A stretch of DNA of 64,000 nucleotides, taken from a virus. The DNA is taken from IMG/VR virus record IMGVR_UViG_3300030419_007196, positions 60,865-124,864 of that record. The stretch is one strand, 5' to 3'. Below, piece by piece: positions 5,912-60,207 of the stretch. Under the pieces are notes generated by a model. It did no database searches and had not been told where the DNA came from. It worked only from the letters and a program-made list of their open reading frames with translations. Positions within the stretch are counted from its first letter, which is position 1. Each line of letters opens with the position of its first letter. Made by a program: the position numbers and the translations under genes.

Positions 5912-6414
5912 TCTAAGTAACCAGCTTGGGCGATAATATAACTGTCTGCCCGATCATAACTTCCCGGCTTGGGATTATTGTTTCTGGTATATTCTACCTC
6001 AAAACCGCCTACGTTGTCAAGGACAAATTTTAACACGACCGCTTTGGCTTTTTGGCCGCGCTGGATCTTAACACCGCTAGCTTTTCTAGCCGACGAGGCA
6101 GAAACATACTCTGGCTCTCTGGCGAAAACATTATAACACAACCAACTAACAACCCCGTTAAATTTTGAAAGGAGTGTAAGAGTTTTTGCTGACGAAAAGC
6201 CCGCCCTGAACATTTGCAAAGATTGCTCAATCACAATTTTTGTGATTGGAAATTCTATCCTTATATCCATTAATTTATTATTAATAAATGAGGCTTTGTC
6301 AAAAAAGTTTTTTATTTTACGAGCATCCCAAGCTTCACAATAAACTACGTTGCCGCTGAGATCTATTACTGTCGCACCAGTAATACTAGTGGACACATCT
6401 AATCCTAATATCAT
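5881..6414 (-). CDS. ruvC: RuvC-like Holliday junction resolvase
   Basis: MILGLDVSTSITG, IVIEQ and DRADSYIIA RNase H-fold catalytic motifs. Confidence 0.8.
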   Translation of the reverse strand: MILGLDVSTSITGATVIDLSGNVVYCEAWDARKIKNFFDKASFINNKLMDIRIEFPITKIVIEQSLQMFRAGFSSAKTLTLLSKFNGVVSWLCYNVFAREPEYVSASSARKASGVKIQRGQKAKAVVLKFVLDNVGGFEVEYTRNNNPKPGSYDRADSYIIAQAGYLECQKERKNSS

Positions 6415-7700
6415 AAATCTAATTTTAACTTAAAAGTGTAATCTTGTTCAGTTGTTTTTTTAATTGGAGTCGCTAAATTTGCAACCGCAATTAAATCACC
6501 GTCTTCATCATAAATCCCTATCTTAGAAATGTGAGTGGTTGGTGAAAACGATTCAGAGTAGTTGCTAAAAGAGCTAGATACAACATTTTTAATAGTAACT
6601 AGAGTGTTCTCTTCATAGTGTTTAGAACCAGAGGAAACAACGTATATTTGATCGTATGTTTTGGCGTCGTGGGTCTGTTTTCTCTCTATGAAGGTTGGAT
6701 TGTTGCTCCAAACTAAGTCATTCTTGTTCGCATGGGCCATCATAGTATAGGTTGGCACTAGTGTTTCCCCTTCAAACTCTATTGTGTATGAGGAGCTAGC
6801 CGGGGCGTATCTAACCATTTCTGACTCTTTGCCAATAAAAGCCTTATAAGACATGAAGTGTGCCCATCTTGGATTGTCAACCCAGCCAGTACTAACAGAC
6901 TGTGAATTTACCGGGCTTAAGTACCCGTCATATTTATCGTCATTTAAAGAATAGCTGGCCGTTATTACAATCAGGCCCTCTGGGTATAAGACAGTACCAA
7001 TTGGTTCGCCGGGTTTGGCACCGGTTGTCTCATATAAAACGCCATTTTTATACAAATCTTGAGCCTCAGCAACCAAAGATCCAGTATAATAGAAAGAAAG
7101 TTTTAAACTACCCTCTTTTATTTTGTTACCACGATATAGCCTCGGCACCTCTATTAGAGAAACATAAGCAGATAAGGGCTGGGCATAAGTTTTACCACCC
7201 GCAGGCAAGCCTTTGTTGGCTGCAACATACTTTTCAAAATCAAAATATGGACTTAAATATTTATAATAGTTGTAGACGTTGTAAAGGCTTCCAAGCTTGT
7301 GCAGGGATGATTCAAAAGAAACACCATCAAGCAACGTTGCCTCTCCGGAACCGCCCTGTACAATATAGTGTTTTTGTAAGCTAGAAGTTATATCTGTATA
7401 ACTGGAGGTGTAAGTTGCGCCCACATCAAGAGCTTCCCACCCAGCATTCTTTTTTAATTGATCATTAAAGAAGCGTATTGGGTTATTCAATCTCTTTTCT
7501 AATTCAGGCTTTATAGTAAAACCGGTATGGGAATAATCATAAACAGAAATAACATCTGTAGTATATTGGTCATGGACATCCAGACCAGAATTGATTTTTG
7601 CCTGATTAAGATAGAAATGAATTTTAAATTTTGGATTAGCTTGAAGATAGCTTAAAAAGACATCATCTTTCTTAAATTTAAAACTTGCTTTATTAAACAT
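6411..7700 (-). CDS. Putative virion/baseplate protein with tail-collar-fibre-like C-terminal motif
   Basis: C-terminal ISKIGIYDEDGDLIAVANLATPIKK; paralog of 7709-8860 (shared IK/RxGS and SNNP/SSNP blocks). Confidence 0.65.
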   Translation of the reverse strand: MFNKASFKFKKDDVFLSYLQANPKFKIHFYLNQAKINSGLDVHDQYTTDVISVYDYSHTGFTIKPELEKRLNNPIRFFNDQLKKNAGWEALDVGATYTSSYTDITSSLQKHYIVQGGSGEATLLDGVSFESSLHKLGSLYNVYNYYKYLSPYFDFEKYVAANKGLPAGGKTYAQPLSAYVSLIEVPRLYRGNKIKEGSLKLSFYYTGSLVAEAQDLYKNGVLYETTGAKPGEPIGTVLYPEGLIVITASYSLNDDKYDGYLSPVNSQSVSTGWVDNPRWAHFMSYKAFIGKESEMVRYAPASSSYTIEFEGETLVPTYTMMAHANKNDLVWSNNPTFIERKQTHDAKTYDQIYVVSSGSKHYEENTLVTIKNVVSSSFSNYSESFSPTTHISKIGIYDEDGDLIAVANLATPIKKTTEQDYTFKLKLDL

Positions 7701-7708
7701 ATCATTTT

Positions 7709-8860
7709 TTAGTGTGTCAGCTTCACCGAAATTAGTTGTGACTTCGAAGCGTCCTTTTTAATTGGTTTCGAAAATTTACCTACTGCCATCAATTCTCCAT
7801 CAGAGGCGTACAAACCAACGCCAGTTATATACGCATACGCAGGGTTGTTTTTATTAACGCTGCCGTCGCTGTCAAGCCTAACTTGAATTTGACTTGATGT
7901 ATTGACGTAAGATGGGTTGCTGCTATAATTAAAATCGTTTGCGCCTGCTGTACAAAGATAGTTTGCAACATTTAATTGTGTGGCGTTTTTAATAGAAATA
8001 TTTTGAATTCTATGCCTCATCCCCGTAGCACATTCTAGAATAGTACCAGAAATCATCGCGTGGCCAAAAGTGTATTGTTTTGCTTGGGATTGACTAACGA
8101 AAAGTATGGGAAGGTGGCCGACTGTATCGCCGTTGGCACCAAAAATACTATTTGCGCCGAGGTTCGAACTTGATAGTTGAATCGCGGCGATGCCCCTAAA
8201 TCTGTCCAAGATACCGACGTTGCCATTATTTGTGGTTTCTTTAAGTATTCTTAACCCGTTTTCCAAATCAACAGACCCTGAATCGGTTATGATGCGAGTC
8301 CCAACAGCACTACCCGTGCCGCTAGCATTAAAGGGGCGCCCATGTGAGCCGGTACCGATCGTTAATTCGAAAGAACCTTTTCTAATCTCATCCTTCATCA
8401 TGAGTCTAGAAAAGTTAATAAAAATGGGCGTGCGCATGACGGTGGCAGTATTTTGAGTATTAAAATTGCCAGAAACATCAAAAACTCTTAAAGAGCCAGT
8501 TTGATTGTAACCAAGCATGACCGCTGCCATTTGCTTATAGATATTTTGTTTTGCTAAAATATCTGTTGACGTGCCTGAAACCGGGGCGGTGGAGCCGACC
8601 AACAACTCATTTAAATCAACTGGTGACGAATTTGGCAAGTATCCGACCGTGATATCAAACAAGGGATTGGCACTCTGACTTAAATGAGGATAGTCGTGAC
8701 ATGTTTGATACATACCCTGATCGTGGTTTTTAATATTAGAAAGAGTGCTGGCCTGATCTGGGTAAGTTCCTGATAAGACAGAGCCGGTTACGGCAATTGT
8801 TTCCTTTACAAAATCCTTTGTGGTTGTTATTTGTATGTTTGTTGAATATTTGCTAGCCAT
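7709..8860 (-). CDS. Putative virion/baseplate protein, paralog of 6411-7700
   Basis: FNYSSNPSY and YITGVGLYASDGELMAVGKFSKPIKK; S/T/G-rich. Confidence 0.65.
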   Translation of the reverse strand: MASKYSTNIQITTTKDFVKETIAVTGSVLSGTYPDQASTLSNIKNHDQGMYQTCHDYPHLSQSANPLFDITVGYLPNSSPVDLNELLVGSTAPVSGTSTDILAKQNIYKQMAAVMLGYNQTGSLRVFDVSGNFNTQNTATVMRTPIFINFSRLMMKDEIRKGSFELTIGTGSHGRPFNASGTGSAVGTRIITDSGSVDLENGLRILKETTNNGNVGILDRFRGIAAIQLSSSNLGANSIFGANGDTVGHLPILFVSQSQAKQYTFGHAMISGTILECATGMRHRIQNISIKNATQLNVANYLCTAGANDFNYSSNPSYVNTSSQIQVRLDSDGSVNKNNPAYAYITGVGLYASDGELMAVGKFSKPIKKDASKSQLISVKLTH

Positions 8861-15295: not shown

Positions 15296-16065
15296 TCTTT
15301 ACATTCATCCTTTGGAACTTCAATTTCTAACTTCTTCAATTCATCACTATAATTTATATCCAAAACTTCATCCGTGTCAACCGATATATTAAAAAAGTAC
15401 TCTACATGTTCTGAGGACAAAGGCTCATCTTCATCTACAAACTCAAGCTTTTTTAAGCTCTGCATGTCTCCTGAAAATTGAAAAACCTCTAAAATAAAAT
15501 TTTCTTTATCGTCAAAAGCATTTTCTTCCAGTACTGACAGTTTCAGATCATCAGAGGTCCTTTTAATGTAGACTCTGCTTTTCTTTCCGTCCTCTTCAAT
15601 ATAAATTTTATATTCACAAAAAATATTTAATTGAGGAATCTTATCATGAATATAGTCGTCTAAAGTTGCCACCTTGCCGGCCTTCTCCAATTCTATTGGG
15701 AATTGTTTAATTGAGCCGGTAAACTCACCCTCTTGTGAATATATTCTCCAAGCCGGCTTGTTTTGTTGTGTATAATCATAGCCCCCCAACTCAAAATATT
15801 TTGGATATTCTAAATCGCCTTTTTTCTGTGGGAAGGCTACAGAACTATCCCACGTCACTTGCTCTTGAGTTATCGGAACATTTTTAATCCGCTTTTGTGC
15901 GTTGTTTTGGGATTCAGTAATGTACGCGTGCTTGCTGTCGTAAATTACCTCGTTATCATAAAAGGAATATGAATGAGGCTTAAACTTGCCCTTGGAGAGC
16001 TTTTCTCTCCCCTTTTCGGTCATAACCAAATCAAACGTTTCTTCTTTTTTATTAATAAACGTCAT
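15292..16065 (-). CDS. Putative virion protein, N-terminal paralog of 8890-9807
   Basis: FDLVMTEKGREKLSKGKFKPHSYSFYDNEVIYD. Confidence 0.6.
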   Translation of the reverse strand: MTFINKKEETFDLVMTEKGREKLSKGKFKPHSYSFYDNEVIYDSKHAYITESQNNAQKRIKNVPITQEQVTWDSSVAFPQKKGDLEYPKYFELGGYDYTQQNKPAWRIYSQEGEFTGSIKQFPIELEKAGKVATLDDYIHDKIPQLNIFCEYKIYIEEDGKKSRVYIKRTSDDLKLSVLEENAFDDKENFILEVFQFSGDMQSLKKLEFVDEDEPLSSEHVEYFFNISVDTDEVLDINYSDELKKLEIEVPKDECKE

Positions 16066-49796: not shown

Positions 49797-49798
49797 TA

Positions 49799-50731: not shown

Positions 50732-50754
50732 TTTCTTCTCCTTTGTTTAAAAAA

Positions 50755-50783
50755 ATAATAACACACTAAGCCCTAAATTTAAA
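50755..50783 (-). promoter_or_regulatory. Sigma70-like promoter (TTTAAA-17-TATTAT with extended TG)
   Basis: Minus strand TTTAAA tttagggcttagtgTGt TATTAT in an intergenic gap. Confidence 0.5.
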
Positions 50784-50788
50784 TTATT

Positions 50789-51823
50789 TTATTGGTTTTG
50801 TCCATAAAATAATTTCATATCCTCATAAAAATCGCCAACATCATAGATTACCGGGCTGTCGTTCTCTATGTGTTGTAACATGGAATCAATATGGTACATT
50901 ATACCAATTTGAAATTCGCTCAAATTCATATCTGTGTATGGGTTGTCCCACCTTATTTCATTTTGATTTATTGTGCACGATAGACATTTTAGTTTGTCGT
51001 TTTCATATTTTTTATTCATTTCAATATTAGTTTTAACACCACTCTTGTCTATCGATTGCATTTCAAAATTGCTATTTGTAAGACAACCAGAGATTATGGA
51101 CCCTCTCGTGCCGTATATTCTAAGAGACTTAAAACCTCTAAAAGCTACCTTTTTGTATAAAGAGGAATATTTGTTAATAAATAAAGACCCGTTACTCATT
51201 CGTGCGGTAGTTATTTTCCATGCATCCACTTCATTTTCTATAAATGAGGAAAGATCGTTATTTTGTGATCTTTTTATCGGATATCCGGCTTCAATCTGTT
51301 TTATATCAACTGGCACCGCATTTTTTGGCAAATAAGATCTTAGCTGGGCGATACCATGATAATCATAGGTTCTATAATCATTCTCGACTGTAAAAATATC
51401 ACCCAATACGCCACTTTTTATTATCTCGTGCTTCAAACACTCCATCGGCAATCTAATCCAATCCTCAACCACGGCTATAGTTGTGTCATAATTCATGGAC
51501 TCCATTTTGATCTTTAAAATTTCATTTGGGTTAAAGCTGATAGGAGTATCAACAAGGATTGGCGTCTCAAAATCAACTATCCTTGATATAATTGTGGACG
51601 TTTGGCTGTGTGGTGTCGACATATAAATCAAATCAGGGTCTTGTTCCTCGCACATCTTAACAGGGCAGTTATATACAGGACAGTTCATATCGTGTCCCGA
51701 TGCTATTTTGCCGGATTTTGTCGTGATACCAACAATTTCAATTTGGCTATTTAACTGTTTTAAGACAGGAAGATTATAATTTATCATCCTTTTTCCAAAG
51801 CCAATTAGGCATAATTTAACCAT
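50789..51823 (-). CDS. Gfo/Idh/MocA family oxidoreductase
   Basis: LIGFGK, DLIYMSTP, ILVDTP, SGVLGDI, HGIAQL, IYGTRGSI. Confidence 0.7.
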   Translation of the reverse strand: MVKLCLIGFGKRMINYNLPVLKQLNSQIEIVGITTKSGKIASGHDMNCPVYNCPVKMCEEQDPDLIYMSTPHSQTSTIISRIVDFETPILVDTPISFNPNEILKIKMESMNYDTTIAVVEDWIRLPMECLKHEIIKSGVLGDIFTVENDYRTYDYHGIAQLRSYLPKNAVPVDIKQIEAGYPIKRSQNNDLSSFIENEVDAWKITTARMSNGSLFINKYSSLYKKVAFRGFKSLRIYGTRGSIISGCLTNSNFEMQSIDKSGVKTNIEMNKKYENDKLKCLSCTINQNEIRWDNPYTDMNLSEFQIGIMYHIDSMLQHIENDSPVIYDVGDFYEDMKLFYGQNQ

Positions 51824-52511
51824 TTACACACCTCTCCAAATATTTTTTATGTAATTTAGTGTTTTCTCTATAATTTGTTAATTGTTGCGGCAGGCAAAAA
51901 TTATAAATGACTCTTATTGTTCCATTCTTATGAGACGGCAGCGTTGAGTGAAATAAAGCTGTATTCAAGAAAATATAACTGCCAGTTTTTACTTTTTTGA
52001 TTTTAACTTCATTTATCTGCTCGTAATCTCTCTGCTTGTCTTTTAAAATTGATAAATGGGTTGTAGGCGCTAGCATTAAGGGTGTTTCCTGAATGTTATT
52101 TAGTTCAGGATAATATATCAACTTGTAAATTGGAGGCGTGTTGCCGCTCAGTTTATTATTATAAAAATGAGTGTCTCTGTGCCATTCCATATAACTTGCT
52201 TCTGGAGCTTCTTCAAATGGGTACGCCACTCTTAACTGAATGTGTCCCAAACAAAGGTTGTAACCTAAAGAGCTTTTTATAATTTTTGGGATATCATTGT
52301 CAAAAAGTATATCTAAAAACACATCATCGTATTCATATACATTTGGTCTTAGGTCTTCACTATAATGATACTTTTGTTTAAAAGCAAACCCAGGTTTTAA
52401 ATTTTTATTGTGTATGTTTTTTAAACACTCATCTATCCTAGATAAAACAGCATTTTTCTTAAATGTGCCGATTGAGTAGCCATTAAAATAAAAATCTTTT
52501 AAATTATTCAT
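51816..52511 (-). CDS. PhyH-like 2OG-Fe(II) dioxygenase
   Basis: WHRD...PTTH...LFH...R facial-triad pattern; start moved to ATG 52511 (SD AGGTG). Confidence 0.7.
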   Translation of the reverse strand: MNNLKDFYFNGYSIGTFKKNAVLSRIDECLKNIHNKNLKPGFAFKQKYHYSEDLRPNVYEYDDVFLDILFDNDIPKIIKSSLGYNLCLGHIQLRVAYPFEEAPEASYMEWHRDTHFYNNKLSGNTPPIYKLIYYPELNNIQETPLMLAPTTHLSILKDKQRDYEQINEVKIKKVKTGSYIFLNTALFHSTLPSHKNGTIRVIYNFCLPQQLTNYRENTKLHKKYLERCVNG

Positions 52512-53466
52512 TTTTATCACCTTTTGTTTCATACCATTCTATAGTTTTTAGCAGCCCCTCTTCAAGCGTTTTAAATTCATAATTTGGAACATGTTTAGTC
52601 AGCTTGGTGATATCAGGGTGCCTTCTTTTTGTATCGTTAGGACGATCAGGCGTATGTGTAGGATCGTAGTCGCGTTTCATAAGACGATGTATGGTTTTAG
52701 CCAAAAAATTAATACTTATTTCGTTGCCGGCACCAATATTAAAAATTTCATTTTGCGCCGATGAACATAGTTCTACAACTGTTTTACAGTGGTCTTCAAC
52801 ATGGCAAAAACTCCTAGTTTGTTTTCCAGAACCTATAATAGCAAAATCTTTATCACTCTTTATTTTTTTAATAAATTCTGGTACAACTTGACCATACTCT
52901 GTATTGTCCATTCTTGGTCCGTATGTATTGAACGGTCTAATGATCAAAAAATCAATATTATTTTTTTTACAAAAATTCATAACATAAAATTCACCAATGG
53001 CTTTTGAAGAGGCATAACTATCCCTATCTGCCATAGCATTGAGGATAATAAACTCAGTCTCAGGTGTTGGAATTATAGGGTTGTGACCATAGACCTCTGA
53101 ACTTGAAGCATACACTATTTTATTTACTGTAGTGTTACTTGTTGCGTTTAATAAATTTTGCGTCATTCTCACATTATCATCTAAAACTTTAAATGGAATA
53201 TCATAAAAATATTTTGTCCCATTAATTGCAGCGTAATGATAAATTGTATCTGGTCTTTCTTTTAAAATTATTGTCGATAGTTTTTCATAATCAGTTACTA
53301 AATCAACCTCATAAAATACAAAATTCTCATGTGTTGGTAGATTTTCTTTTTTCCCACGAAAAAAATTATCCATACCGACAACTTTTTGACCGCGAGCTAA
53401 TAACTCCTCCACTAGAAAGCTTCCAAGAAACCCAGCGGCGCCAGTCACTAAAACCTTTTTCATCAC
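52504..53466 (-). CDS. NAD-dependent epimerase/dehydratase (UDP-glucuronate decarboxylase-like)
   Basis: TGAAGFLG, ASSSEVYG, RDSYASSK, RPFNTYGPRM, QTRSFC, RRHPDI. Confidence 0.85.
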   Translation of the reverse strand: MMKKVLVTGAAGFLGSFLVEELLARGQKVVGMDNFFRGKKENLPTHENFVFYEVDLVTDYEKLSTIILKERPDTIYHYAAINGTKYFYDIPFKVLDDNVRMTQNLLNATSNTTVNKIVYASSSEVYGHNPIIPTPETEFIILNAMADRDSYASSKAIGEFYVMNFCKKNNIDFLIIRPFNTYGPRMDNTEYGQVVPEFIKKIKSDKDFAIIGSGKQTRSFCHVEDHCKTVVELCSSAQNEIFNIGAGNEISINFLAKTIHRLMKRDYDPTHTPDRPNDTKRRHPDITKLTKHVPNYEFKTLEEGLLKTIEWYETKGDKNE

Positions 53467-54257
53467 TTCCTCATGCCCTTAAAAACGGTTGTTTTGTATT
53501 TGTTGTTTTCTTCTATTAGATGTTTAAAAAAATCAACGTTAAGATCGTTTTTTAAACACAGAAAAGCTAAACTTTTTGTATCTTTAGGTAGGCACATTCC
53601 TCCAAACCCTCGCAGATCCTTATTGCAATTCAAATATACGTCATTAATGTGCTCTCTTTTAACAGCGGCATTTTTTACATTCGTATAATCCGCTTCCAAA
53701 CTCTCGCACAGTTCATAAAAACTATTGGCAAATGTTATTAATGTAGCATTATACACATTGTTAAAATATTTAACCAATTCTGCTTCTGTTTCATCAGTTC
53801 TTATCACTTTTTTTGGTAAGCTGCCATGGCAATTAAATATTTTTTCATATATATTGGGACAAGATGTTCCCACAACACACAAATCGTGATTTTCAATAAA
53901 GTCCTCGGTGGCGCACCTCTCTCTTAAGAATTCTGGCACAAAACACAGTTTTAATTTTGGGTATTTTAATTGAAGGTTTTTTGTTGTACCGGGGGTGACG
54001 GTAGACTTAATTGCAATGATGCCCTGATATCGAAGATCATTGAGATCTTCAACCACACTCTCTACTATACTTGTATTGCAAGACCCATCATGAGCAGATG
54101 GGGTGGGGACACAAATATAACAAATTTCAGTATTCAAAACATTTTCGATTTTAGTGTTGTTTTTTATATCGTGAAAGAAGACTGTGTGTTTGAGACTTTC
54201 GAACCCTTCTTTAACAGCGGTGCCAACAACGCCGAGACCAATAATTCCTATTTTCAA
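53463..54257 (-). CDS. ugd: UDP-glucose/GDP-mannose 6-dehydrogenase family, short form
   Basis: GLGVVG, ICVPTP, KSTVTPG, PEFLRE, AELVKY, GFGGMCLPKD. Confidence 0.88.
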   Translation of the reverse strand: MKIGIIGLGVVGTAVKEGFESLKHTVFFHDIKNNTKIENVLNTEICYICVPTPSAHDGSCNTSIVESVVEDLNDLRYQGIIAIKSTVTPGTTKNLQLKYPKLKLCFVPEFLRERCATEDFIENHDLCVVGTSCPNIYEKIFNCHGSLPKKVIRTDETEAELVKYFNNVYNATLITFANSFYELCESLEADYTNVKNAAVKREHINDVYLNCNKDLRGFGGMCLPKDTKSLAFLCLKNDLNVDFFKHLIEENNKYKTTVFKGMRK

Positions 54258-54258
54258 A

Positions 54259-55179
54259 TCATTCTCCTAAAACGTTTAGAAAAAAATTAACGTATTCTTT
54301 AATGTATTTGTGCATTTCATACTTTTTAACTTTCTCATAACAACATTCTACATCATTAGGGCTGGGAATGTAAATATTATTAGGCATATTAATAATACAA
54401 TTATCACTTAGAGTATCTCTAGCCATGCCCACATCGGTGGAAATAATTGGTATCTTCATAGCCGATGCTTCTAAAACTGCTTGAGGTCCGCCCTCCGTTC
54501 TAGAAGAGACCACATAGAGGTCACAACAGGCGTACATATCTCTTAAAGTTTCCATTGGTGCCATTTCTATAAATTTATAATCAATGGATTCTTCTTTAAG
54601 TCTTTGTATTATGTATTGTCTGCGCCACCCTCCAAGCAGCACTAATAATTTCTTTTTATCAATCTTTTTAATTGTGTCAACAAAAATATCAGGACCCTTT
54701 TCAAGCTTGGGGCTTTTTAAATCATGCCCTTCTGTATCTCTTTGAAAACTACCAACAACATATTTGTCATCAGGAATTTGTATTTTACTTCTAGCATACT
54801 TTTTTTCAAGAGGGTGCCATATTTTTGAGTTGTACCAATATCCAATAACTTTAATTGGCTTTTTTGTTATCTGGCAAATAAAATCTTTAGTTTTTTGGCA
54901 AGGGACATGATAAACATTAACATATTGATCTCTCGCTAAAAATTCTGCTAATGAGTTTCTGGTAAATTTTTCTTTAACGACATGGTGTATTGTCGCGACA
55001 ACTTTTTTTTCTCGTAGAAATACATCTGGTATTGATCGCCACTGATAAGAACTTATGAGCCATATTACATCTGCTTCCGCTATATTCTCAGTAGTAAGAT
55101 CAGGTTTTAGTTTCTTCCATTCAGCAGCGATACGATCTAATATCCAACCCTCATTTGGCGATAATACAAATACTTTCAT
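54259..55179 (-). CDS. GT4 glycosyltransferase
   Basis: EKGPD, DLYVVSSRTEGGPQAVLEA...PIISTDVG. Confidence 0.88.
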   Translation of the reverse strand: MKVFVLSPNEGWILDRIAAEWKKLKPDLTTENIAEADVIWLISSYQWRSIPDVFLREKKVVATIHHVVKEKFTRNSLAEFLARDQYVNVYHVPCQKTKDFICQITKKPIKVIGYWYNSKIWHPLEKKYARSKIQIPDDKYVVGSFQRDTEGHDLKSPKLEKGPDIFVDTIKKIDKKKLLVLLGGWRRQYIIQRLKEESIDYKFIEMAPMETLRDMYACCDLYVVSSRTEGGPQAVLEASAMKIPIISTDVGMARDTLSDNCIINMPNNIYIPSPNDVECCYEKVKKYEMHKYIKEYVNFFLNVLGE

Positions 55180-56057
55180 TTAATAAAGCTCACATATTTT
55201 TCAGCTACTTTTTCCATATCATAACAAGAATCATAGATATTTTTAATTTTTCTTTTAAAGTTCATTTCGGGTGGACTATAAAGTCTTGTTGGCTTGTAAT
55301 CCCACTCGTCTTCCATAATAATTATGGCATCGAGACCAGCTATTTCTCTCGTGCCGCCGGCTGAGGAGCATATGATTTGACAGCCACTTGCCCTAGCGTC
55401 AATAACGACGTTTGGGCAATGATCTAGCCAAGCTAAATGTAAAAAGTATTTACTTCGCTTGTATAGCGACAAAAGCTTTTCATAGCTCAACTCACCAACG
55501 TAAAAAATGTTTGGGTCTTTAATATGATAATCAGGATTGCCAGCCACCACTAAACAATCGTTCTGTTCTTTATGTTCTAAGAAGTATCTAATATTGTCCT
55601 TTAATCTTTTGTGTGGGCGCCAAGAAGCTGCACAAGACCACACATTCTCATACTCATTAATAATTTTATTATCTAATGGCTCTATTTTATCAATTAAAGA
55701 AATATCAGCGCCGTTATGTATGACAATACTGTTATCATGGCCACCAAAATATTCCTTGGTTAACCTTTTATTAAACTCTGATTGAAAAATAACGCCATGT
55801 GCTTTTTTGTAGGTTGCCAGTATGTTTTGGTTTTGCCTATTAAAATCAAAGTCCGTATTAAAATATATTCCATCTAGTCTTTGAAAAAGTCTGTCTGATG
55901 AGTGGTTGCTACCATCCTCTATGAAACAAAGGATGGCATCATAGTCGTGATCAGTTACCTTATCGCCATTTAGATGCAAATATTTATGTAGTTTTTTGCC
56001 AAAAGAATTTGGCCCCGAATTGCTTCTAAAGTTCACATTTTCAAATTTAATTTTCAA
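55176..56057 (-). CDS. GT4 glycosyltransferase
   Basis: IHNG, DHCPNVVIDARASGC..GGTREI; related to 48894-49796. Confidence 0.82.
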   Translation of the reverse strand: MKIKFENVNFRSNSGPNSFGKKLHKYLHLNGDKVTDHDYDAILCFIEDGSNHSSDRLFQRLDGIYFNTDFDFNRQNQNILATYKKAHGVIFQSEFNKRLTKEYFGGHDNSIVIHNGADISLIDKIEPLDNKIINEYENVWSCAASWRPHKRLKDNIRYFLEHKEQNDCLVVAGNPDYHIKDPNIFYVGELSYEKLLSLYKRSKYFLHLAWLDHCPNVVIDARASGCQIICSSAGGTREIAGLDAIIIMEDEWDYKPTRLYSPPEMNFKRKIKNIYDSCYDMEKVAEKYVSFIK

Positions 56058-57660
56058 AATCTATCCTACTATATTTCTTTTTTCGCCTAATTCGCTGCTT
56101 AGTAGTATATTGTTGAGCTTGTTTTATTTTATCAACATTTAAGGGGTTGGAACGGTTATAAACATGTAGAACTTCTGGTACATATCTTGCTAATGGGCCA
56201 ACCATTTCCAACATCGGCAACATCATGGCCTGATCATATGTCATTTTATAGTATTCACCGTCGTCATCCATCAGATCTTTTTTGTCAATTTTGTCCCACA
56301 GTAGAGCCTTAAACGTTCGTAGGTGAGAGGCTCTCCATTCATCATTACGATAATCATTATTGTCTATTACGCTTTTCGGATATTCCGATGGTTCAACTCC
56401 CTTTGTCCCCATGGGGTAATATTGATAGCTTCCATATGTTAAGAATACTTTCTCCTCCACATAGATTTTGTTTAACAAATTAAGGACATCTTCCGATGAC
56501 AGCCAATCATCGCCATCTAAAACAATAATAACATCATCGGGGTTTGAATTTATGCTTTGAATAGCAATATCAATATTTTTAAGAGCATAGTTTTTTTCTT
56601 TATTATTTATGATTTTGTATCTTTCATCACCCTTAAAGTGTTTATCAAAAACATTCGCCGTGTTGTCCGTTGAAACATCGTTCACAACAGTTACTGTGTA
56701 ATTATCATATGTTTGCTTCTTGATGCTCGCGAGGCAGCGATACAGCCAACTCTGGACATTATAACATGGAACAACAAAATGAAATTTTGTTTTCTCCGCT
56801 ATCTTTTGTTCAACTAATTTTTCTTTCAAACATTTATCGTAGAAAATCTCTTTGTTTGTGTTTACATATTCTACAATAGACTCTCTGCTTTTAAACCACG
56901 GCTCATCTTTATGTTGAACATTATCATTTAAAACAAGCTCGCAGTTCAATAACCTTGCTTCGATTGTTATCCTCGGGCAAGTATCTAAACCGGCGGCGAG
57001 GAAGATAAGACCCTTTGAGGCTGCTAATTTTCGCAAAAGATCTTTGTGTTCTAGGCCCGATACCACTTCATATTTTAAATTGTGTTCGGTCGCGTATTTA
57101 ATTCCATCCTTTGTACCCTTAACCCAAGAATCAGATCCAAGAATAATATATTTATCGTTTTTATTTTTAGTATCTAGCGACTCTATAAACTTTAATGTTT
57201 CTTTTTTGAAAGAGGAACTTAAAACAGAACTAGACTTTGATAAAAAGGGAAAGATTGATTCATATTCATCCTTTTGCCCCTGTGACATAAAAAATAAGTT
57301 TTTTGCTTTTGCCAAAAATAGAGCAACCACCTTGCCCCTTCTCGATGTAGGACAATTGCACTCTCCTTCGGCGTTAATATGTTTATTTTTTAGTCTATAC
57401 TTACAATATTTATAATCATATTCAATAACACTATAGTCTTTTACCTTTTTAACAATCTCTAAAATGAGTTTATCGCTCAAAAAGGAAAAATTACCAAAAA
57501 TCCATTTTTCGTTTTTTAAAAGATCTATTGTTAAAGAATTTAAGTCGCGAGAATGTATTTTCTTATAATTGTAAAAGCCTCTCTCTAAGAAGGCATCTGT
57601 GGTTAATTCTGCGCCGCCGGTATAAGTATCTGAAAAGGCGTCTGCTACGACTACTATCAT
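56047..57660 (-). CDS. Two-domain glycosyltransferase (GT-B-like N-half + GT2 C-half)
   Basis: GGAE and DTCPRITIEARLLNC; then VVPCYN, VNDVSTD, LDGDDWL. Confidence 0.82.
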   Translation of the reverse strand: MIVVVADAFSDTYTGGAELTTDAFLERGFYNYKKIHSRDLNSLTIDLLKNEKWIFGNFSFLSDKLILEIVKKVKDYSVIEYDYKYCKYRLKNKHINAEGECNCPTSRRGKVVALFLAKAKNLFFMSQGQKDEYESIFPFLSKSSSVLSSSFKKETLKFIESLDTKNKNDKYIILGSDSWVKGTKDGIKYATEHNLKYEVVSGLEHKDLLRKLAASKGLIFLAAGLDTCPRITIEARLLNCELVLNDNVQHKDEPWFKSRESIVEYVNTNKEIFYDKCLKEKLVEQKIAEKTKFHFVVPCYNVQSWLYRCLASIKKQTYDNYTVTVVNDVSTDNTANVFDKHFKGDERYKIINNKEKNYALKNIDIAIQSINSNPDDVIIVLDGDDWLSSEDVLNLLNKIYVEEKVFLTYGSYQYYPMGTKGVEPSEYPKSVIDNNDYRNDEWRASHLRTFKALLWDKIDKKDLMDDDGEYYKMTYDQAMMLPMLEMVGPLARYVPEVLHVYNRSNPLNVDKIKQAQQYTTKQRIRRKKKYSRIDFEN

Positions 57661-58946
57661 AGTTCTAGTTTATTAAAAAGATCATCAATTTCTTCTTCAA
57701 TTTTTAATTCTTCTTCAAATATTGTTTCAATAATTTCGCTATTCTTATCTTTTTCGGCAAAATTTTCTTCCACCCAAGATTTTAATTTCTTGGAATGACC
57801 CAAATACATACCATGATTGTTTAGGCCGGCTCGCATGGCCACTTTACAAGAACTAAAGTTTGGATATGCCCACGCGGCGTCTCGTTCAATAACATCAGCC
57901 CACACAGCTTCGTTTTGTACTTGCCTTACATTATAAACGATCTTGTTGAAATGTGGACGCATCTTTGAAGCGCCCTTTTTATTTTTCTTTGGAGCGTAAA
58001 GGAAATCCTTTTGACCACCAAAATCGTGTGCAATTATTGGCAGACCACAATAAGCTGCTTCAAATAGTGGCAGACCGTAGCCTTCGCCATGGCCAAAATT
58101 CAACATAAATTTAACTTTTGGATGATTATACAGGCTATGAATCTCATCATTTGTCATCGATCCATGCAACAAATACATTTTACATTTAGCATCCGGATAG
58201 TCGGCCTTAACAGCCTGAAGTTTTTTCGTTGATACAAACCTATCCGGCAAACAATTTCTAGCCGTGTTTGTCTTTACTATTAGGCCGACGCCCTCGTCAT
58301 CTTTAAATTCTTCGAAGAATGCTCTTACAGTTTCTTCCATGTTCTTTCTTCTAGTCCACTGTGCAACCAAAAGAAAGTTAAAATCTGTTTCTAGTTCCAG
58401 ATCTAAATCTACTAGATCATATTTTTTAACTGGGTAGTTAACGACCGTTATTTTGTCTTCTAAATTTTCTCTAAGCTCTTCTAGGCTGTTTCTTGTATTT
58501 TCATCGAAAGCGTGAGAATACTTGTCGATTGCGTTAACAATACCCTCTTTTGAAAATTTAGAAGGTACAATAATTTTTTCCACATTCACCAAGCATGGTT
58601 GCAGCCAGCTAGGACAAACTGCATCTGCCTCGATGCCGGCAGTTACTCCAATCATCATCGGCGCAACACGATTCCAAGCAGTTGGAAGATCAACATGAAT
58701 ACACACATCAAAAAAATTAGGGATTTTTTCCCTCATGACATGGTGAAACTTAGATATACACAAATCAATCTTCTTTCTTTCTTCCGAAGTTTCCCATTGC
58801 CAGCTAGTTGTCCCCCAATTAAGAGGTTCCACAAATATGTCAAACATGTCTTCCTTTTCAAGAAGTGCTCTAAAAATAAATCTGGAATGTTCACCATAGC
58901 CCGATTGTGTTAAAATAGGTGCTTTTAATAATACTTTTCTTTTCAT
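57657..58946 (-). CDS. GT4 glycosyltransferase
   Basis: SGYGEHSR, RKN, HGEGYGLPLFEAAYCGLPII; start moved to ATG 58946. Confidence 0.88.
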   Translation of the reverse strand: MKRKVLLKAPILTQSGYGEHSRFIFRALLEKEDMFDIFVEPLNWGTTSWQWETSEERKKIDLCISKFHHVMREKIPNFFDVCIHVDLPTAWNRVAPMMIGVTAGIEADAVCPSWLQPCLVNVEKIIVPSKFSKEGIVNAIDKYSHAFDENTRNSLEELRENLEDKITVVNYPVKKYDLVDLDLELETDFNFLLVAQWTRRKNMEETVRAFFEEFKDDEGVGLIVKTNTARNCLPDRFVSTKKLQAVKADYPDAKCKMYLLHGSMTNDEIHSLYNHPKVKFMLNFGHGEGYGLPLFEAAYCGLPIIAHDFGGQKDFLYAPKKNKKGASKMRPHFNKIVYNVRQVQNEAVWADVIERDAAWAYPNFSSCKVAMRAGLNNHGMYLGHSKKLKSWVEENFAEKDKNSEIIETIFEEELKIEEEIDDLFNKLEL

Positions 58947-58947
58947 T

Positions 58948-60207
58948 TTATATCTCTTTAAATGACCATCGTGTGTAATTTTTTCTGGTTTCCCAAGAAC
59001 CATACTTTTCATGAATTTCTTTCATCATTTCTGGCCAACGATCTTGAAACTTTTTCCATGAATAATTTTTTACTACATGTTCTCGACCTTTGGTTGCCAT
59101 GTTTTTCAATTCTTCTTCTGAAGAGTTAAATATTTTTTCTAAGGCAGAGACAAATTGTTCCTCTGAAATCCTGTCCTCAAAAATATATGGCACATTTTGA
59201 CTACCAACAATAATTTTTGATACAGGTTCTAGACCGACACCAAACCAATCCTTTCCATCGGTAACTTGTTCTTGAAGTCCGCCGGTCATATTAACTATGA
59301 TCGGTGTACCACATGATAAAGATTCTAGAGTCGCCAAGCCGAAGCCCTCTGCGTCCGATACATTAATTGTACAATCTGCCATGTTGTACATGGCGGATAA
59401 ATCAGATTCAGTAACCTTGTTTGTAGAGAACAGAACCTCTCCATTATCCAATCCGAACTCAGCTATTACTGCCTCTAAATTTGGACCATTAGGGTCGTTG
59501 GGCGCAGTATGCATTAAGAGGATCGCCTTATCCTTGCCAACCTTTTCCAAAAACTTACCAAACCAATAAATTACGGTAGCGGAAAGTTTTCTTTTTGCGT
59601 TTCTATTATTCCAGAAAAATATGAATTTATCCTTCGCCTCTGCAAAATTATCTTCTCTGATTTTGTCAATCATATCTGGATCAAGCGGCTTAAAAATTTC
59701 CTCATGTACTGAGTGTGGCAGATATTCACAATCAACTTCTGGCGCAACGTTTCTAACTACCTCATCTGTTAGTTTGGAAATGGTTACAATCTTATCGTTG
59801 GAATCATACCAAGCTTTGTTGAACTTTGGATACGGCTTATTGTCCCATACATGATAATATACTAATGGAACTAGTGACCTGATTTCATCCTCCATCGACC
59901 AAAGCCACTCAAAAAAACGCGGGTCTGTCATGATCCACATTATGTCTGGCTTTTCATTTCTTAAAATAGAGCGGATTGTACCTTCATTACCAAAGCCGTC
60001 GACTGGATAAACAACGAAATCATCTCCAAATTCTTTAGTTCTTATCGGCTCATAGCTTTGATGTTTAATTGAACCACCGAGCGATACAACTTTAAATTCA
60101 CCGGTGTTTAGAAGAGATTGAATAAAGTTTTTAGTCTGCAATCCAACCCCGGAGGTACCTAGTGGAATATCACTAATGGTCAATACTTTAATTTTTTCTT
60201 TTTTCAT
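58948..60207 (-). CDS. GT4 glycosyltransferase
   Basis: SGVG, NRNAKRK, SDAEGFGLATLESLSCGTPII; ATGA-coupled start at 60207. Confidence 0.9.
   Translation of the reverse strand: MKKEKIKVLTISDIPLGTSGVGLQTKNFIQSLLNTGEFKVVSLGGSIKHQSYEPIRTKEFGDDFVVYPVDGFGNEGTIRSILRNEKPDIMWIMTDPRFFEWLWSMEDEIRSLVPLVYYHVWDNKPYPKFNKAWYDSNDKIVTISKLTDEVVRNVAPEVDCEYLPHSVHEEIFKPLDPDMIDKIREDNFAEAKDKFIFFWNNRNAKRKLSATVIYWFGKFLEKVGKDKAILLMHTAPNDPNGPNLEAVIAEFGLDNGEVLFSTNKVTESDLSAMYNMADCTINVSDAEGFGLATLESLSCGTPIIVNMTGGLQEQVTDGKDWFGVGLEPVSKIIVGSQNVPYIFEDRISEEQFVSALEKIFNSSEEELKNMATKGREHVVKNYSWKKFQDRWPEMMKEIHEKYGSWETRKNYTRWSFKEI

What the first reader, a model, noticed from the sequence alone, without database searches (positions are those of the whole stretch)
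6411..60207. Candidate autonomous virion-glycosylation system: glycan cluster beside virion proteins packed with a [S/T]-[G/A/S]-S tripeptide
Seen: several structural-module proteins are studded with TGS/SGS/TSS/SSS/TAS/SAS. Hand counts are 15 in the 477-aa protein (24554-25987; about 3 expected from rough composition) and about 30 in the 2148-aa LamG protein, mostly in its first half. The motif is also frequent in 6411-7700, 7709-8860 and 16065-18080, but I found only about 1 in the 1050-aa SbcCD and few in gp6. The motifs are dispersed between beta-strand-like segments, not in low-complexity runs. A co-oriented 24-gene glycan cluster lies just upstream of this module. Established: virion glycosylation by virus-encoded GTs occurs in some mycobacteriophages, chloroviruses and mimiviruses. 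Inference: the tripeptide is an O-glycosylation sequon for a phage initiating GT (candidates 57657-58946 and 58948-60207), which coats exposed virion proteins with a complex glycan.
Basis: partly seen in the sequence, partly recalled or inferred. Interest (0 to 1): 0.9.

Follow-up and report, generated by a model that had tools for sequence, protein, structure and literature searches.

The report
Candidate glycosylation motif on phage virions
A short serine-containing tripeptide is packed into a fixed subset of the particle proteins of an uncultured marine T4-like phage and its relatives, all of which carry the same pair of sugar-transferring enzymes, so these phages probably coat their own particles with sugars, though no experiment has yet shown it.

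Summary
[ST][GAS]S occurs 15 times in the 477-aa protein (2.9 expected) and 31 times in the 2148-aa LamG protein (8.1 expected). It survives local shuffles. It is order-specific: [ST][GAS]T is 1.05x expected. It is encoded by 61 distinct 9-mers in 67 sites. TGS and SGS are the two most over-represented of all tripeptides scored.

The same proteins are enriched in 120 homologs, in a complete 186-kb relative, and in the cultured phages Mel-JY01 and immuto. T4 and cyanophage S-SM2 show none.

All motif-enriched lineages examined carry a syntenic pair of GT4 glycosyltransferases, here 58948-60207 and 57657-58946. The pair is predicted to form a heterodimer. The glycan cluster has no membrane assembly or export protein. 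Immuto DNA carries no reported glycosylated base.

The sequon reading is the best explanation (about 0.5) but rests only on indirect evidence. Surface exposure could not be computed. No clade member lacking the GT pair was found, so the co-occurrence test has no within-clade negative. The scan's first readers noted the same motif in an overlapping window of this genome.

The parts
58948..60207 (-). GT4-type glycosyltransferase (419 aa), first of the conserved pair. Candidate initiating or catalytic subunit.
   Evidence: Pfam Glycos_transf_1 53.3 bits (cut-off 26.4) and GT4-conflict 42.2 bits. 7859 homologs at E <= 0.001 among 8000 candidates scored; the best 120 are 59-100% identical. E287 and E295 are invariant in 40 sequences. 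Syntenic homologs in immuto, Mel-JY01 and RM378.
57657..58946 (-). Second, more divergent GT4-like protein (429 aa). Predicted partner of the first.
   Evidence: Pfam Glycos_transf_1 30.0 bits. 2357 homologs at E <= 0.001 among 6823 candidates, many fused to a GT2 domain. E288 and E296 are invariant in 42 sequences. Predicted complex with the 419-aa GT: score 0.88 in each of 3 runs, best of 3 controls 0.00.
56047..57660 (-). GT2-family glycosyltransferase (537 aa) with an unassigned 290-aa N-terminal part.
   Evidence: Pfam Glycos_transf_2 81.8 bits at residues 296-432. A GT2 gene follows the GT pair in immuto and Mel-JY01. It is fused to the second GT in some relatives.
34889..56057 (-). Variable part of the glycan cluster. 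It holds sugar-nucleotide epimerases/dehydratases, a UDP-glucose dehydrogenase-like protein, methyltransferases, an aminotransferase, a B12/radical-SAM enzyme, three GT1-type genes and one sub-threshold GT2.
   Evidence: Pfam and NCBIfam. A Kyte-Doolittle scan finds no multi-pass membrane protein. Content differs between relatives: NeuB is present in 1 of 5.
44064..44909 (-). NeuB-family nonulosonic acid synthase.
   Evidence: Pfam NeuB 238.9 bits. NCBIfam NeuB_NnaB 262 bits, below the equivalog cut-off of 399.65.
40631..41368 (-). CMP-sugar (nonulosonate) cytidylyltransferase.
   Evidence: Pfam CTP_transf_3 77.5 bits. NCBIfam PseF 120 bits, below the cut-off of 205.7.
36095..37246 (-). GT-B-fold protein of unassigned family (383 aa). 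It could be a transferase or a NeuC-like 2-epimerase.
   Evidence: No Pfam or NCBIfam hit. AlphaFold2 pLDDT 88, pTM 0.90. Foldseek best matches are UDP-sugar 2-epimerases, TagF and BshA/MshA, with TM 0.45-0.60.
24554..25987 (-). 477-aa all-beta virion protein next to gp6. It has the densest motif carriage (15 sites).
   Evidence: 15 vs 2.93. 120 homologs average 13.6 vs 3.1. 10 motif columns are conserved in at least half of 117 aligned sequences. Model pLDDT 81.5, pTM 0.81, with a CBM-like jelly roll plus FN3/Ig-like domains.
18094..24540 (-). 2148-aa LamG-domain baseplate or fibre protein with 31 motif sites.
   Evidence: 31 vs 8.09. Pfam Laminin_G_3 33.9 bits. 11 homologs in IMG/VR loci give 394 vs 111.8. 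The G002 ortholog has 52 vs 14.1.
16065..18080 (-). 671-aa structural-module protein with 7 motif sites.
   Evidence: 7 vs 2.22, z 3.2. No PHROG or Pfam hit.
7709..8860 (-). 383-aa structural-module protein with 7 motif sites.
   Evidence: 7 vs 2.16. The G002 ortholog has 8 vs 2.04.
6411..7700 (-). 429-aa structural-module protein with 7 motif sites.
   Evidence: 7 vs 1.64. The G002 ortholog has 12 vs 3.63.
25987..28195 (-). gp6-like and gp25-like baseplate wedge proteins. These are internal contrast cases that are not enriched.
   Evidence: PHROG baseplate wedge families. gp6 has 1 vs 1.36 and gp25 has 0 vs 0.10. 26 gp6 homologs give 16 vs 39.8 and 24 gp25 homologs give 1 vs 4.1.

Best explanation
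The phage is an uncultured marine T4-like myovirus, probably of the Far-T4 kind. Its contig is a 125-kb fragment. The proposal is that it glycosylates a defined subset of its own virion proteins in the host cytoplasm.

Proposed mechanism:
1. The conserved pair of GT4-type glycosyltransferases (58948-60207 and 57657-58946) works as a heterodimer.
2. The heterodimer recognises a short strand-loop element, hydrophobic-[S/T]-[G/A/S]-S-hydrophobic/Asn, and puts the first sugar(s) on a hydroxyl of the motif. The near-invariant third Ser is the most likely site.
3. The adjacent GT2 and the other soluble GTs of the 25-kb cluster extend the chain. They use sugar nucleotides made by the cluster's own enzymes, including a CMP-activated nonulosonic acid.
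4. The initiation module is conserved across the clade. The downstream sugar genes vary from phage to phage, so different phages would wear different glycans.

What is shown and what is inferred:
- Shown: the motif statistics, their conservation, the gene content, the synteny, and the absence of membrane steps.
- Model-supported only: the GT heterodimer.
- Inferred: that the motif is the acceptor site, which residue is modified, which GT initiates, and the glycan's composition.
For: 1. The motif is sharp and lies at the amino-acid level.
- Five window proteins pooled give 67 vs 17.4, while [ST][GAS]T gives 14 vs 13.4.
- TGS and SGS top an unbiased tripeptide scan.
- 61 distinct 9-mers encode the 67 sites.

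2. The motif occurs in proteins with no BLAST-detectable similarity to one another. BLAST finds only one paralog trio and one shared 38-aa tail among them.

3. It is restricted to a subset of virion proteins.
- Window 6411-25987: 71 vs 22.6.
- Genome 1-40000: 12 vs 20.4.
- Window 25987-34500: 2 vs 4.3.

4. The same orthologous set is enriched in a complete relative, G002. The enriched proteins are the sheath, the gp13-like adaptor, the MCP, the 131-aa protein, the two terminal proteins, the LamG giant and the 505-aa protein. 18 of 182 ORFs hold 140 vs 36.2, and the other 164 hold 57 vs 71.0.

5. The enrichment is lineage-specific.
- Mel-JY01: 73 vs 24.7.
- Immuto: 105 vs 38.5.
- RM378: 113 vs 64.3.
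- T4: 12 vs 14.7 and 14 vs 12.4.
- S-SM2 gp7: 16 vs 18.5.

6. These lineages share the syntenic module nuclease-GT-GT-(GT2)-variable sugar genes.

7. No multi-pass membrane protein lies in the cluster, so the acceptor should be soluble.

8. Complex prediction for the two GTs scored 0.88 in 3 of 3 runs, with the best of 3 controls at 0.00. That mark was reached by 58 of 80 solved complexes and 2 of 110 mismatched pairs. The runs share at least 98% of contacts, and the partner's pLDDT is at least 90. My own alignments were used, so these counts hold only roughly.

9. In the 117-sequence alignment, 10 columns keep the motif in at least half of the sequences, against 0-3 columns for permuted control motifs. 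Instances in variable columns are 1.74x expected, against 0.4-1.4x for the controls.

10. LC-UV-MS/MS of immuto 2-6A DNA found dA, dC, dT and fdPreQ1 only (PMC10516641, section 18 read).
Against: - There is no direct evidence of any glycan on any protein.
- Surface exposure was not computed, because the tool returns no coordinates. Of 15 motifs in the 477-aa model, 10 are fully in coil, 3 are in strands, 1 is in a helix and 1 straddles coil and helix. All Ser in the model are 36 of 57 in coil, so the motifs are not clearly more loop-located than Ser in general.
- The flanks are hydrophobic (1.5-1.6x at positions -2, -1 and +1) and charge is depleted at -1 (0.21x). This also fits a partly buried structural turn.
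- Several sites are near-invariant (T419-G420-S421; S238-S239-S240), as structural residues would be.
- One enriched protein (138 aa, genome 53456-53872) lies between the prohead protease and a putative scaffold gene. It might be internal to the head.
- LR756508 has GT and gp6 homologs but only weak enrichment (6 vs 2.4; 4 vs 1.1).
- Co-occurrence of motif and GT pair is clade-wide, so it is phylogenetically a single observation.
- Both GTs keep their two conserved Glu, so nothing marks one as a dedicated substrate-binding subunit.
- No protein-directed transferase family, such as Maf (PF01973), was found in the contig.
Confidence: 0.5

Rival explanations
1. The tripeptide is a structural or assembly feature. 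It would be a favoured strand-turn-strand sequence of the beta-sandwich domains that build the outer baseplate, fibres and sheath decorations of this phage lineage, kept by purifying selection on the fold. The glycan cluster would serve an unrelated purpose.
For: - Flanks are hydrophobic and many motifs sit at strand borders.
- About 61% of motif instances in the 477-aa family lie in 10 conserved columns.
- The 477-aa protein is all-beta, with CBM-like and FN3/Ig-like domains.
- Enrichment is inherited together with the orthologs.
Against: - T4 and S-SM2 baseplate, fibre and sheath proteins are also rich in beta-sandwich domains (this point is recalled, not tested here). They show none of the enrichment: 12 vs 14.7, 14 vs 12.4 and 16 vs 18.5.
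- The motif is shared by proteins with no detectable homology to one another.
- Within a column, G, A and S interchange at position 2 and T and S at position 1, while position 3 stays Ser and Thr there is avoided ([ST][GAS]T 0.71x). This is unusual for a Gly-dependent turn.
- Instances in non-conserved columns are still 1.74x expected.
- Neighbouring large virion-module proteins have none (G002 3170-aa protein: 0 vs 5.1).
Confidence: 0.27
2. The motif is the recognition site for a different clade-specific factor. Candidates are another post-translational modification (for example phosphorylation, acylation or hydroxylation) or a dedicated chaperone. The GT pair would act on another soluble acceptor.
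For: - The statistics show only that something lineage-specific reads or needs the motif.
- Other enzyme-like genes of unknown role lie nearby. Examples are a weak PhyH-like hit at 51816-52532 and a weak PAD_porph-like hit beside the capsid gene.
Against: - No kinase or other protein-modifying enzyme was seen to be conserved across the clade. This was not searched systematically.
- The GT pair is the one clade-wide enzyme module identified. It is more conserved than the structural proteins: 59-81% identity in the best 120 hits, against 48-75% for the 477-aa protein.
Confidence: 0.1
3. The glycan cluster modifies phage DNA or the host cell surface, as is usually proposed for phage sugar genes. 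Under this reading the motif enrichment is unrelated to it.
For: - The GT pair always sits next to a PD-(D/E)XK nuclease gene.
- The first GT matches Pfam 'GT4-conflict'.
- Papers on aquatic phages commonly ascribe such genes to DNA glucosylation or host-surface change (PMC12801897 and PMC12619734, passages read).
Against: - No thymidylate-synthase-like hydroxymethylase was found in the contig, though it is a fragment with CheckV completeness 44%. The family is present in 1 of 5 relatives; both complete genomes lack it.
- Immuto DNA shows only dA, dC, dT and fdPreQ1.
- The cluster has no flippase, polymerase, ligase, initiating phosphoglycosyl transferase or other multi-pass membrane protein.
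- This rival leaves the motif unexplained.
Confidence: 0.12

Closest known systems
Virion glycosylation in mycobacteriophages (Freeman et al. 2023, Cell Host Microbe; paper not held). Known to me from recall and from the citing passage in PMC12619734.
   Same: Phage-encoded glycosyltransferases act in the cytoplasm on the phage's own structural proteins. The GT genes lie beside or inside the structural module.
   Different: There the glycans sit at the C-termini of the capsid and tail-tube subunits (citing passage). Here the candidate sites are a dispersed tripeptide across many baseplate, fibre, sheath and head-associated proteins. The major capsid protein is only marginally enriched (3 vs 2.1). 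The phage is a T4-like myovirus. The cluster is far larger (28 ORFs) and includes a nonulosonic acid pathway.
GtfA/GtfB two-protein O-GlcNAc transferase of Gram-positive serine-rich-repeat adhesins (recalled; PDB 5e9t/5e9u appear).
   Same: Two adjacent GT-B genes are predicted to form a heterodimer. Action is cytoplasmic. The acceptor Ser lies in small-residue contexts (S-A-S, S-S-S, T-A-S). Further GTs then extend the glycan.
   Different: Sequence similarity to Gtf1 is marginal (E 1.4e-3, residues 270-401 only). Both phage subunits keep the two conserved Glu, whereas GtfB is non-catalytic (recalled). The acceptor sites are dispersed in folded beta domains, not in long low-complexity repeats.
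Chlorovirus and mimivirus virus-encoded glycosylation of capsid or fibril proteins (recalled; review PMC9614988 seen only in a search listing).
   Same: The glycosylation machinery is virus-encoded, soluble and independent of host ER or membrane pathways. The sequons are atypical. The chlorovirus GT B736L (3oy2) is among the best PDB sequence matches of the 419-aa GT (E 1.7e-9).
   Different: Those are eukaryotic giant viruses. The chlorovirus glycans are N-linked (recalled). Their motifs are different.
Autotransporter heptosyltransferases (AAH/TibC family) and flagellin Maf nonulosonate transferases (recalled).
   Same: These are cytoplasmic O-glycosylation systems acting on Ser/Thr in short loops between beta strands (the heptosyltransferases) or with nonulosonic acids (Maf).
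   Different: No heptosyltransferase family was found. No Maf (PF01973) match was found in the contig. Only a sub-threshold Maf-like stretch is fused to the second GT in one distant homolog, P0358 (25.8 bits, cut-off 34.6).

Membership tests
GT4 / Pfam Glycos_transf_1 glycosyltransferases | Match to PF00534 above the gathering score | tested here: met
   58948-60213 scores 53.3 bits and 57657-59012 scores 30.0 bits, against a cut-off of 26.4.
GT4 / Pfam Glycos_transf_1 glycosyltransferases | Conserved E-x7-E motif in the C-terminal Rossmann domain (the motif itself is recalled) | tested here: met
   E287 and E295 are invariant in 40 sequences. E288 and E296 are invariant in 42 sequences.
Phage virion glycosylation (mycobacteriophage type) | Phage-encoded GTs beside the structural genes | tested here: met
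   The cluster 34889-60213 is co-oriented with and abuts the structural module.
Phage virion glycosylation (mycobacteriophage type) | Glycans chemically present on virion proteins | not testable with these tools
   This needs MS or glycan staining of virions.
Phage virion glycosylation (mycobacteriophage type) | Acceptor at the C-terminus of the capsid and tail-tube subunits | tested here: not met
   Candidate sites are dispersed. The MCP has 3 vs 2.1, with sites at residues 171, 176 and 445 of 628.
GtfA/GtfB-type two-subunit protein O-glycosyltransferase | Two adjacent GT-B proteins that form a complex | tested here: inconclusive
   The genes are adjacent. The model supports binding: score 0.88 in 3 of 3 runs, best control 0.00. 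That mark was reached by 58 of 80 solved and 2 of 110 mismatched pairs. This is a prediction only.
GtfA/GtfB-type two-subunit protein O-glycosyltransferase | One subunit catalytically inactive (recalled) | tested here: not met
   Both keep the invariant Glu pair.
GtfA/GtfB-type two-subunit protein O-glycosyltransferase | Sequence relationship to GtfA/Gtf1 | tested here: inconclusive
   The match to 5e9t_A has E 1.4e-3 over residues 270-401 only. It ranks 18th of 23 PDB matches.
Nonulosonic acid (sialic-acid-like) biosynthesis | NeuB-type synthase plus CMP-activating cytidylyltransferase | tested here: met
   PF03102 scores 238.9 bits and PF02348 scores 77.5 bits. Both are below the NCBIfam equivalog cut-offs, so the exact sugar is unknown.
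Nonulosonic acid (sialic-acid-like) biosynthesis | A dedicated nonulosonate transferase (Maf or sialyltransferase family) | tested here: not met
   No PF01973 match at E <= 1 in the contig. The 383-aa GT-B protein is unassigned.
Wzx/Wzy- or ABC-dependent surface polysaccharide clusters | Membrane initiating transferase, flippase, polymerase or transporter | tested here: not met
   No protein in 34889-60213 has more than one hydrophobic 19-residue segment. The single flagged segment is the N-terminal Rossmann stretch of 52504-53466. This is a crude hydropathy scan.
T4-type DNA base glycosylation | Pyrimidine hydroxymethylase (thymidylate-synthase family) supplying the acceptor base | tested here: not met
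   PF00303 is absent from the contig, which is a fragment. It is present in 1 of 5 relatives, and both complete genomes lack it. The TET/JBP search was uninformative because its control found nothing anywhere.
Far-T4 / T4-like myoviruses | T4-type portal, major capsid protein, terminase, sheath, and gp6/gp25 wedge | tested here: met
   Portal_T4 scores 247.6 bits, and Terminase_6N and the S77 prohead protease are present. MCP and sheath PHROGs match, as do gp6 and gp25 PHROGs. Placement in 'Far-T4' rests on shared genes with RM378 and on PMC4360716 (passages read). It was not tested by a tree.

The most novel reading that the evidence does not exclude
A globally abundant clade of aquatic Far-T4-like myoviruses runs a virus-encoded, sequon-directed, general protein O-glycosylation system. 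The clade has thousands of metagenomic homologs and its cultured members include Flavobacterium phage immuto, Microcystis phage Mel-JY01 and Rhodothermus phage RM378. A conserved heterodimeric GT4 initiator would read a hydrophobic-[S/T]-[G/A/S]-S-hydrophobic hairpin element on about ten different virion proteins. Strain-variable downstream genes would then build different glycans, here ending in a nonulosonic acid. The result would be a serotype-like sugar coat on the baseplate, fibres, sheath and head.
Probability: 0.4. Interest if true: 0.9.

Novelty: new variant of a known kind. Interest (0 to 1): 0.78.

Why it matters
Virion glycosylation by phage-encoded enzymes is documented only for some mycobacteriophages. 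In the library searched, all 24 papers since 2023 that hold the phrase 'virion glycosylation' together with 'phage' (23 of them listed) appeared, from their titles and abstract starts and from the two I read passages of, to concern mycobacteriophages or to cite that work in passing. None of my searches returned a paper describing a tripeptide sequon or virion glycosylation in T4-like aquatic phages.

If the reading is right, several things follow.
- A large and abundant group of ocean and lake phages would carry a sugar coat on the very proteins that touch the host.
- That coat could affect host recognition, resistance to proteases and grazers, particle stickiness, and carbon export.
- It would give glycobiology a new soluble O-glycosylation system with a simple sequon.
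- It would offer a new explanation for the many 'cell-wall' sugar genes annotated in aquatic phage genomes.

The idea is directly testable because three clade members are in culture.

Tried and rejected
- **DNA-level repeat as the cause.** Rejected. 61 distinct 9-mers encode the 67 sites, and Ser codon use at position 3 resembles that of all Ser.
- **Recent duplication or internal repeats as the cause.** Rejected. Self-BLAST finds no internal repeats, and only one paralog trio and one shared 38-aa tail.
- **Local Ser/Thr/Gly-rich composition as the cause.** Rejected by block shuffles and by the permuted-motif controls.
- **A general property of phage fibres or of marine phages.** Rejected by T4 and S-SM2.
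- **Independent lineages with a distant single GT homolog** (siphoviruses S-CBS4 and Mae-JY09). There is no clear enrichment (36 vs 32.2; 40 vs 26.4, with [ST][GAS]T also raised in both, 37 vs 26.6 and 39 vs 19.5). My simple ORF caller picks some wrong-strand frames in these GC-rich genomes, so I draw nothing from this.
- **Surface mapping.** The structure tool returned secondary structure but no coordinates, so solvent exposure could not be computed. No model file was present in the script box either.
- **Sheath domain test.** 8 of 9 motifs fall in the non-conserved residues 1-650 of the 1021-aa sheath. Length alone predicts 5.7, so this is not significant.
- **A Maf-type nonulosonate transferase.** None in the contig.
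It is under-represented (13 vs 35.5) and absent on the coding strand of the glycan cluster. It therefore gave no information on expression timing.
- **PHROGs.** No hit for 16 of the 20 structural-module proteins tried.
- **tblastn of the 477-aa protein against cultured phages.** No match.
- **Protein Atlas.** It returned only viral GT clusters.
- **Freeman et al. 2023.** The paper could not be read because it is not held.
- **Supplements.** They are closed. Supplementary Figure S2C and the Supplementary Data of PMC10516641 (restriction digests, gene lists) were not seen and could bear on immuto DNA modification.

Full report
**Setting.** The window is the last 64 kb of a single 124,864-bp viral contig. 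CheckV rates the contig 44% complete. All long ORFs lie on the minus strand and GC is about 37%.

The contig encodes the core parts of a T4-type particle:
- T4-type portal, large terminase and S77 prohead protease;
- major capsid protein and a 1021-aa tail sheath;
- gp25-like and gp6-like baseplate wedge proteins.

Its closest cultured relatives are distant. The gp6 homologs of Microcystis phage Mel-JY01, Flavobacterium phage immuto and the uncultured 484-kb phage LR756508 are 30-33% identical over the full length. The 477-aa protein has no match in 50,697 cultured or deposited phage records. In metagenomes it has 5416 homologs at E <= 0.001 among 8000 candidates scored, many of them marine (Tara). 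It probably belongs to the 'Far-T4' sequence space described by Roux et al. 2015 (PMC4360716, passages read). I did not build a tree.

| Protein | Observed | Expected | z |
|---|---|---|---|
| 477 aa (24554-25987) | 15 | 2.93 | 7.3 |
| 2148 aa LamG (18094-24540) | 31 | 8.09 | 8.1 |
| 6411-7700 | 7 | 1.64 | 4.4 |
| 7709-8860 | 7 | 2.16 | 3.4 |
| 16065-18080 | 7 | 2.22 | 3.2 |
| SbcCD (1810-4962) | 1 | 1.05 | - |
| gp6 (25987-27783) | 1 | 1.36 | - |

Several other proteins of the same module are not enriched. 9882-13019 has 1 vs 1.9, 13021-14220 has 0 vs 0.9 and 29227-31692 has 1 vs 0.9.

The signal is not a composition effect.
- Block shuffles of 10 to 50 residues still expect only 26.5-30.5 against 93 observed in ten pooled proteins. 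That pool was chosen after seeing the counts.
- Permuted motifs of identical composition are near expectation: [ST][GAS]T 14 vs 13.4 and [GAS][ST]S 24 vs 17.1, against 67 vs 17.4 for the motif itself.
- In a scan of all tripeptides seen at least six times, TGS (23 vs 3.5) and SGS (18 vs 4.5) rank first and second. All six motif members are in the top 19.
- The one-letter neighbours TGT, TGG, AGS, GGS and TTS are at or below expectation.

The signal is not a DNA repeat, because 61 distinct 9-mers encode the 67 sites. It is not due to duplication either.

The 92 sites with full flanks have a clear context:
- hydrophobic residues at -2 and -1 (1.5x and 1.6x);
- few charged residues at -1 (0.21x);
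- hydrophobic residues or Asn directly after the Ser (1.6x and 2.0x);
- a fourth Ser in 0 of 92 sites.

**Which proteins carry it.**

| Region | ORFs | Observed | Expected |
|---|---|---|---|
| Early half of the contig (1-40,000) | 49 | 12 | 20.4 |
| Glycan cluster | 29 | 16 | 11.1 |
| Inner baseplate region (window 25987-34500) | 10 | 2 | 4.3 |
| Window 6411-25987 | 10 | 71 | 22.6 |
| Head/tail region outside the window | 25 | 37 | 21.7 |

In the head/tail region the enriched proteins are as follows.
- The sheath has 9 vs 3.9, with 8 of 9 sites outside the conserved C-terminal domain.
- A gp13-like adaptor has 3 vs 1.0.
- Two of three paralogs behind the capsid gene are enriched (5 vs 1.3 and 3 vs 0.7). 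The third is weaker (5 vs 2.75).
- A 138-aa protein has 6 vs 1.3.

**Replication in relatives.**
- 120 homologs of the 477-aa protein (48-100% identity) average 13.6 motifs against 3.1 expected, with a minimum of 7. [ST][GAS]T is at 0.71x in the same set.
- In an alignment of 117 of them, 10 columns hold the motif in at least half of the sequences (61% of instances). Permuted controls have 0-3 such columns.
- Instances in variable columns are still 1.74x expected, against 0.4-1.4x for controls.
- Within conserved columns T and S exchange at position 1 and G, A and S at position 2, while position 3 stays Ser.
- In 25 IMG/VR loci, 477-aa homologs give 313 vs 75.4, LamG-giant homologs 394 vs 111.8, gp6 homologs 16 vs 39.8 and gp25 homologs 1 vs 4.1.
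- In the complete 186-kb relative G002, 18 of 182 ORFs hold 140 vs 36.2 and the other 164 hold 57 vs 71.0.
- The 18 include the orthologs of the sheath, the adaptor, the capsid protein, the 138-aa protein, both terminal proteins, the LamG giant (52 vs 14.1) and the 477-aa protein (15 vs 3.6).
- A neighbouring 3170-aa protein in G002 has 0 vs 5.1.

**Controls in other phages.**

| Phage / protein set | Observed | Expected |
|---|---|---|
| T4 baseplate, sheath, tube, capsid | 12 | 14.7 |
| T4 long fibres | 14 | 12.4 |
| Cyanophage S-SM2 gp7 (4156 aa) | 16 | 18.5 |
| Mel-JY01, mainly proteins downstream of gp6 (12 pooled) | 73 | 24.7 |
| Immuto, gp6 and proteins downstream of it (10 pooled) | 105 | 38.5 |
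| RM378, whole genome | 113 | 64.3 |
| LR756508, 1400-aa protein | 6 | 2.4 |
| LR756508, 482-aa protein | 4 | 1.1 |

S-SM2 gp6, gp8 and VrlC are also at expectation. In Mel-JY01 and immuto [ST][GAS]T is at 0.92x and 0.93x. In RM378 two adjacent proteins have 8 vs 1.6 and 6 vs 1.3.

**The glycosyltransferases.** The cluster has 28 ORFs, 24 of them with Pfam hits. It encodes:
- five GT1-type glycosyltransferases;
- one clear and one sub-threshold GT2;
- five epimerase/dehydratases;
- a UDP-glucose dehydrogenase-like protein;
- methyltransferases, an aminotransferase and a B12/radical-SAM enzyme;
- a NeuB-type synthase and a cytidylyltransferase.

A hydropathy scan finds no multi-pass membrane protein in the cluster.
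- The 419-aa GT has 7859 homologs at E <= 0.001 among 8000 scored. The best 120 are 59-100% identical.
- The 429-aa GT has 2357 homologs, many fused to a GT2 domain.

Among deposited phages, hits covering most of both GTs are limited to Mel-JY01 and immuto. RM378 matches 76% of the first GT and 26% of the second. LR756508 matches the first GT only. The gene order is nuclease, GT, GT, then GT2 and variable sugar genes. Three IMG/VR relatives have the same adjacent pair plus a GT2. NeuB is present in only 1 of 5 relatives. The picture is a conserved initiation-like module with a variable sugar toolbox.

Both GTs keep two invariant Glu residues eight positions apart. That this is the GT4 E-x7-E motif is recalled.

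Complex prediction with my own alignments gave a score of 0.88 in each of three runs.
- The best of three controls scored 0.00.
- That mark was reached by 58 of 80 solved complexes and by 2 of 110 mismatched pairs.
- The runs agree in at least 98% of contacts, and the partner's pLDDT is at least 90.
- The counts hold only roughly with user alignments.
- The model supports binding but does not show it.

**Rival targets.**
- DNA: no thymidylate-synthase-type hydroxymethylase is present in the contig. The family is present in 1 of 5 relatives, and both complete genomes lack it.
- Published LC-UV-MS/MS of immuto 2-6A DNA found dA, dC, dT and fdPreQ1 in place of dG (PMC10516641, section 18 read).
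- Host surface: the cluster lacks every membrane step. Soluble GTs could still act on host lipid-linked intermediates.

Neither rival explains the motif.

**Structure.** The 477-aa protein folds confidently (pLDDT 81.5, pTM 0.81) as an all-beta chain. Foldseek matches are FN3/Ig/macroglobulin-type chains and a carbohydrate-binding module (8wab, TM 0.71 on the target).

Of its 15 motifs, 10 lie wholly in coil, 3 in strands, 1 in a helix and 1 straddles coil and helix. All Ser in the model are 36 of 57 in coil. Many motifs sit at strand ends. This is compatible with exposed turns but does not prove exposure.

**Reading.**
- A sharp tripeptide defined at the protein level is shared by unrelated virion proteins of one lineage. 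It is absent from the equivalent proteins of other T4-like phages.
- This points to a lineage-specific factor that reads it. The only such factor identified is the conserved GT pair.
- I therefore rate sequon-directed cytoplasmic O-glycosylation of virion proteins as the best explanation, at about 0.5.
- The main rival is a structural turn motif, at about 0.27. The two are not exclusive, since a transferase may recognise a hairpin.
- The closest known systems are mycobacteriophage virion glycosylation and the GtfA/GtfB system of serine-rich adhesins. This case works like them in outline but fails defining features of each (see the membership table).
- I found no paper describing such a sequon or virion glycosylation in T4-like aquatic phages.

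Noticed in passing
window 36095-37246 and 35809-36111: A 383-aa protein with no family hit folds as a GT-B enzyme (pLDDT 88). Its best structural matches are UDP-sugar 2-epimerases, TagF and BshA/MshA. K245, H247 and P248 are invariant in 33 homologs. Its neighbour is a sub-threshold EcbF/BcbF-like capsule phosphatase. It could be the missing NeuC-like step, a nonulosonate transferase, or a TagF-like phosphotransferase.
   Followed up: partly
homologs of window 57657-58946 (P0246, P0358, P0260): The second GT is often fused at its C-terminus to a GT2 domain. In P0358 it is fused to a sub-threshold MptE-like/Maf-like stretch (25.8 bits, cut-off 34.6). Maf proteins transfer nonulosonic acids to flagellin (recalled).
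   Followed up: partly
relative G002 (loci L045-L046), 57647-67159 and 44096-53797: Two neighbouring giant proteins differ completely. The 3170-aa one has 0 motifs against 5.1 expected, and the 3233-aa LamG-type one has 52 against 14.1.
   Followed up: no
window 61921-63255: A PIN-domain plus PhoH-like ATPase fusion (444 aa) lies just upstream of the nuclease and the GT pair. PhoH is listed as present on Far-T4 contigs in PMC4360716.
   Followed up: no
whole window, both strands: The word CTAWTTA, proposed elsewhere in the scan as a late promoter, is under-represented (13 vs 35.5 expected). It has no coding-strand copy inside the glycan cluster. Two copies sit in the gap upstream of gene 8890-9807.
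   Followed up: partly
contig outside the window, genome 47142-49535: Three paralogous proteins of 190-215 aa lie directly behind the major capsid gene (27-38% identical to one another). They share a conserved TGS site, and two of the three are motif-enriched.
   Followed up: partly
window 63266-63745 and genome 18011-18457: Two copies of a small protein with an N-terminal hydrophobic segment are 84% identical over 145 residues and lie about 106 kb apart on the contig.
   Followed up: no
window 34889-35809: The first epimerase of the cluster contains an SSSSS run. That run accounts for three of the four motif hits in this non-virion protein.
   Followed up: yes
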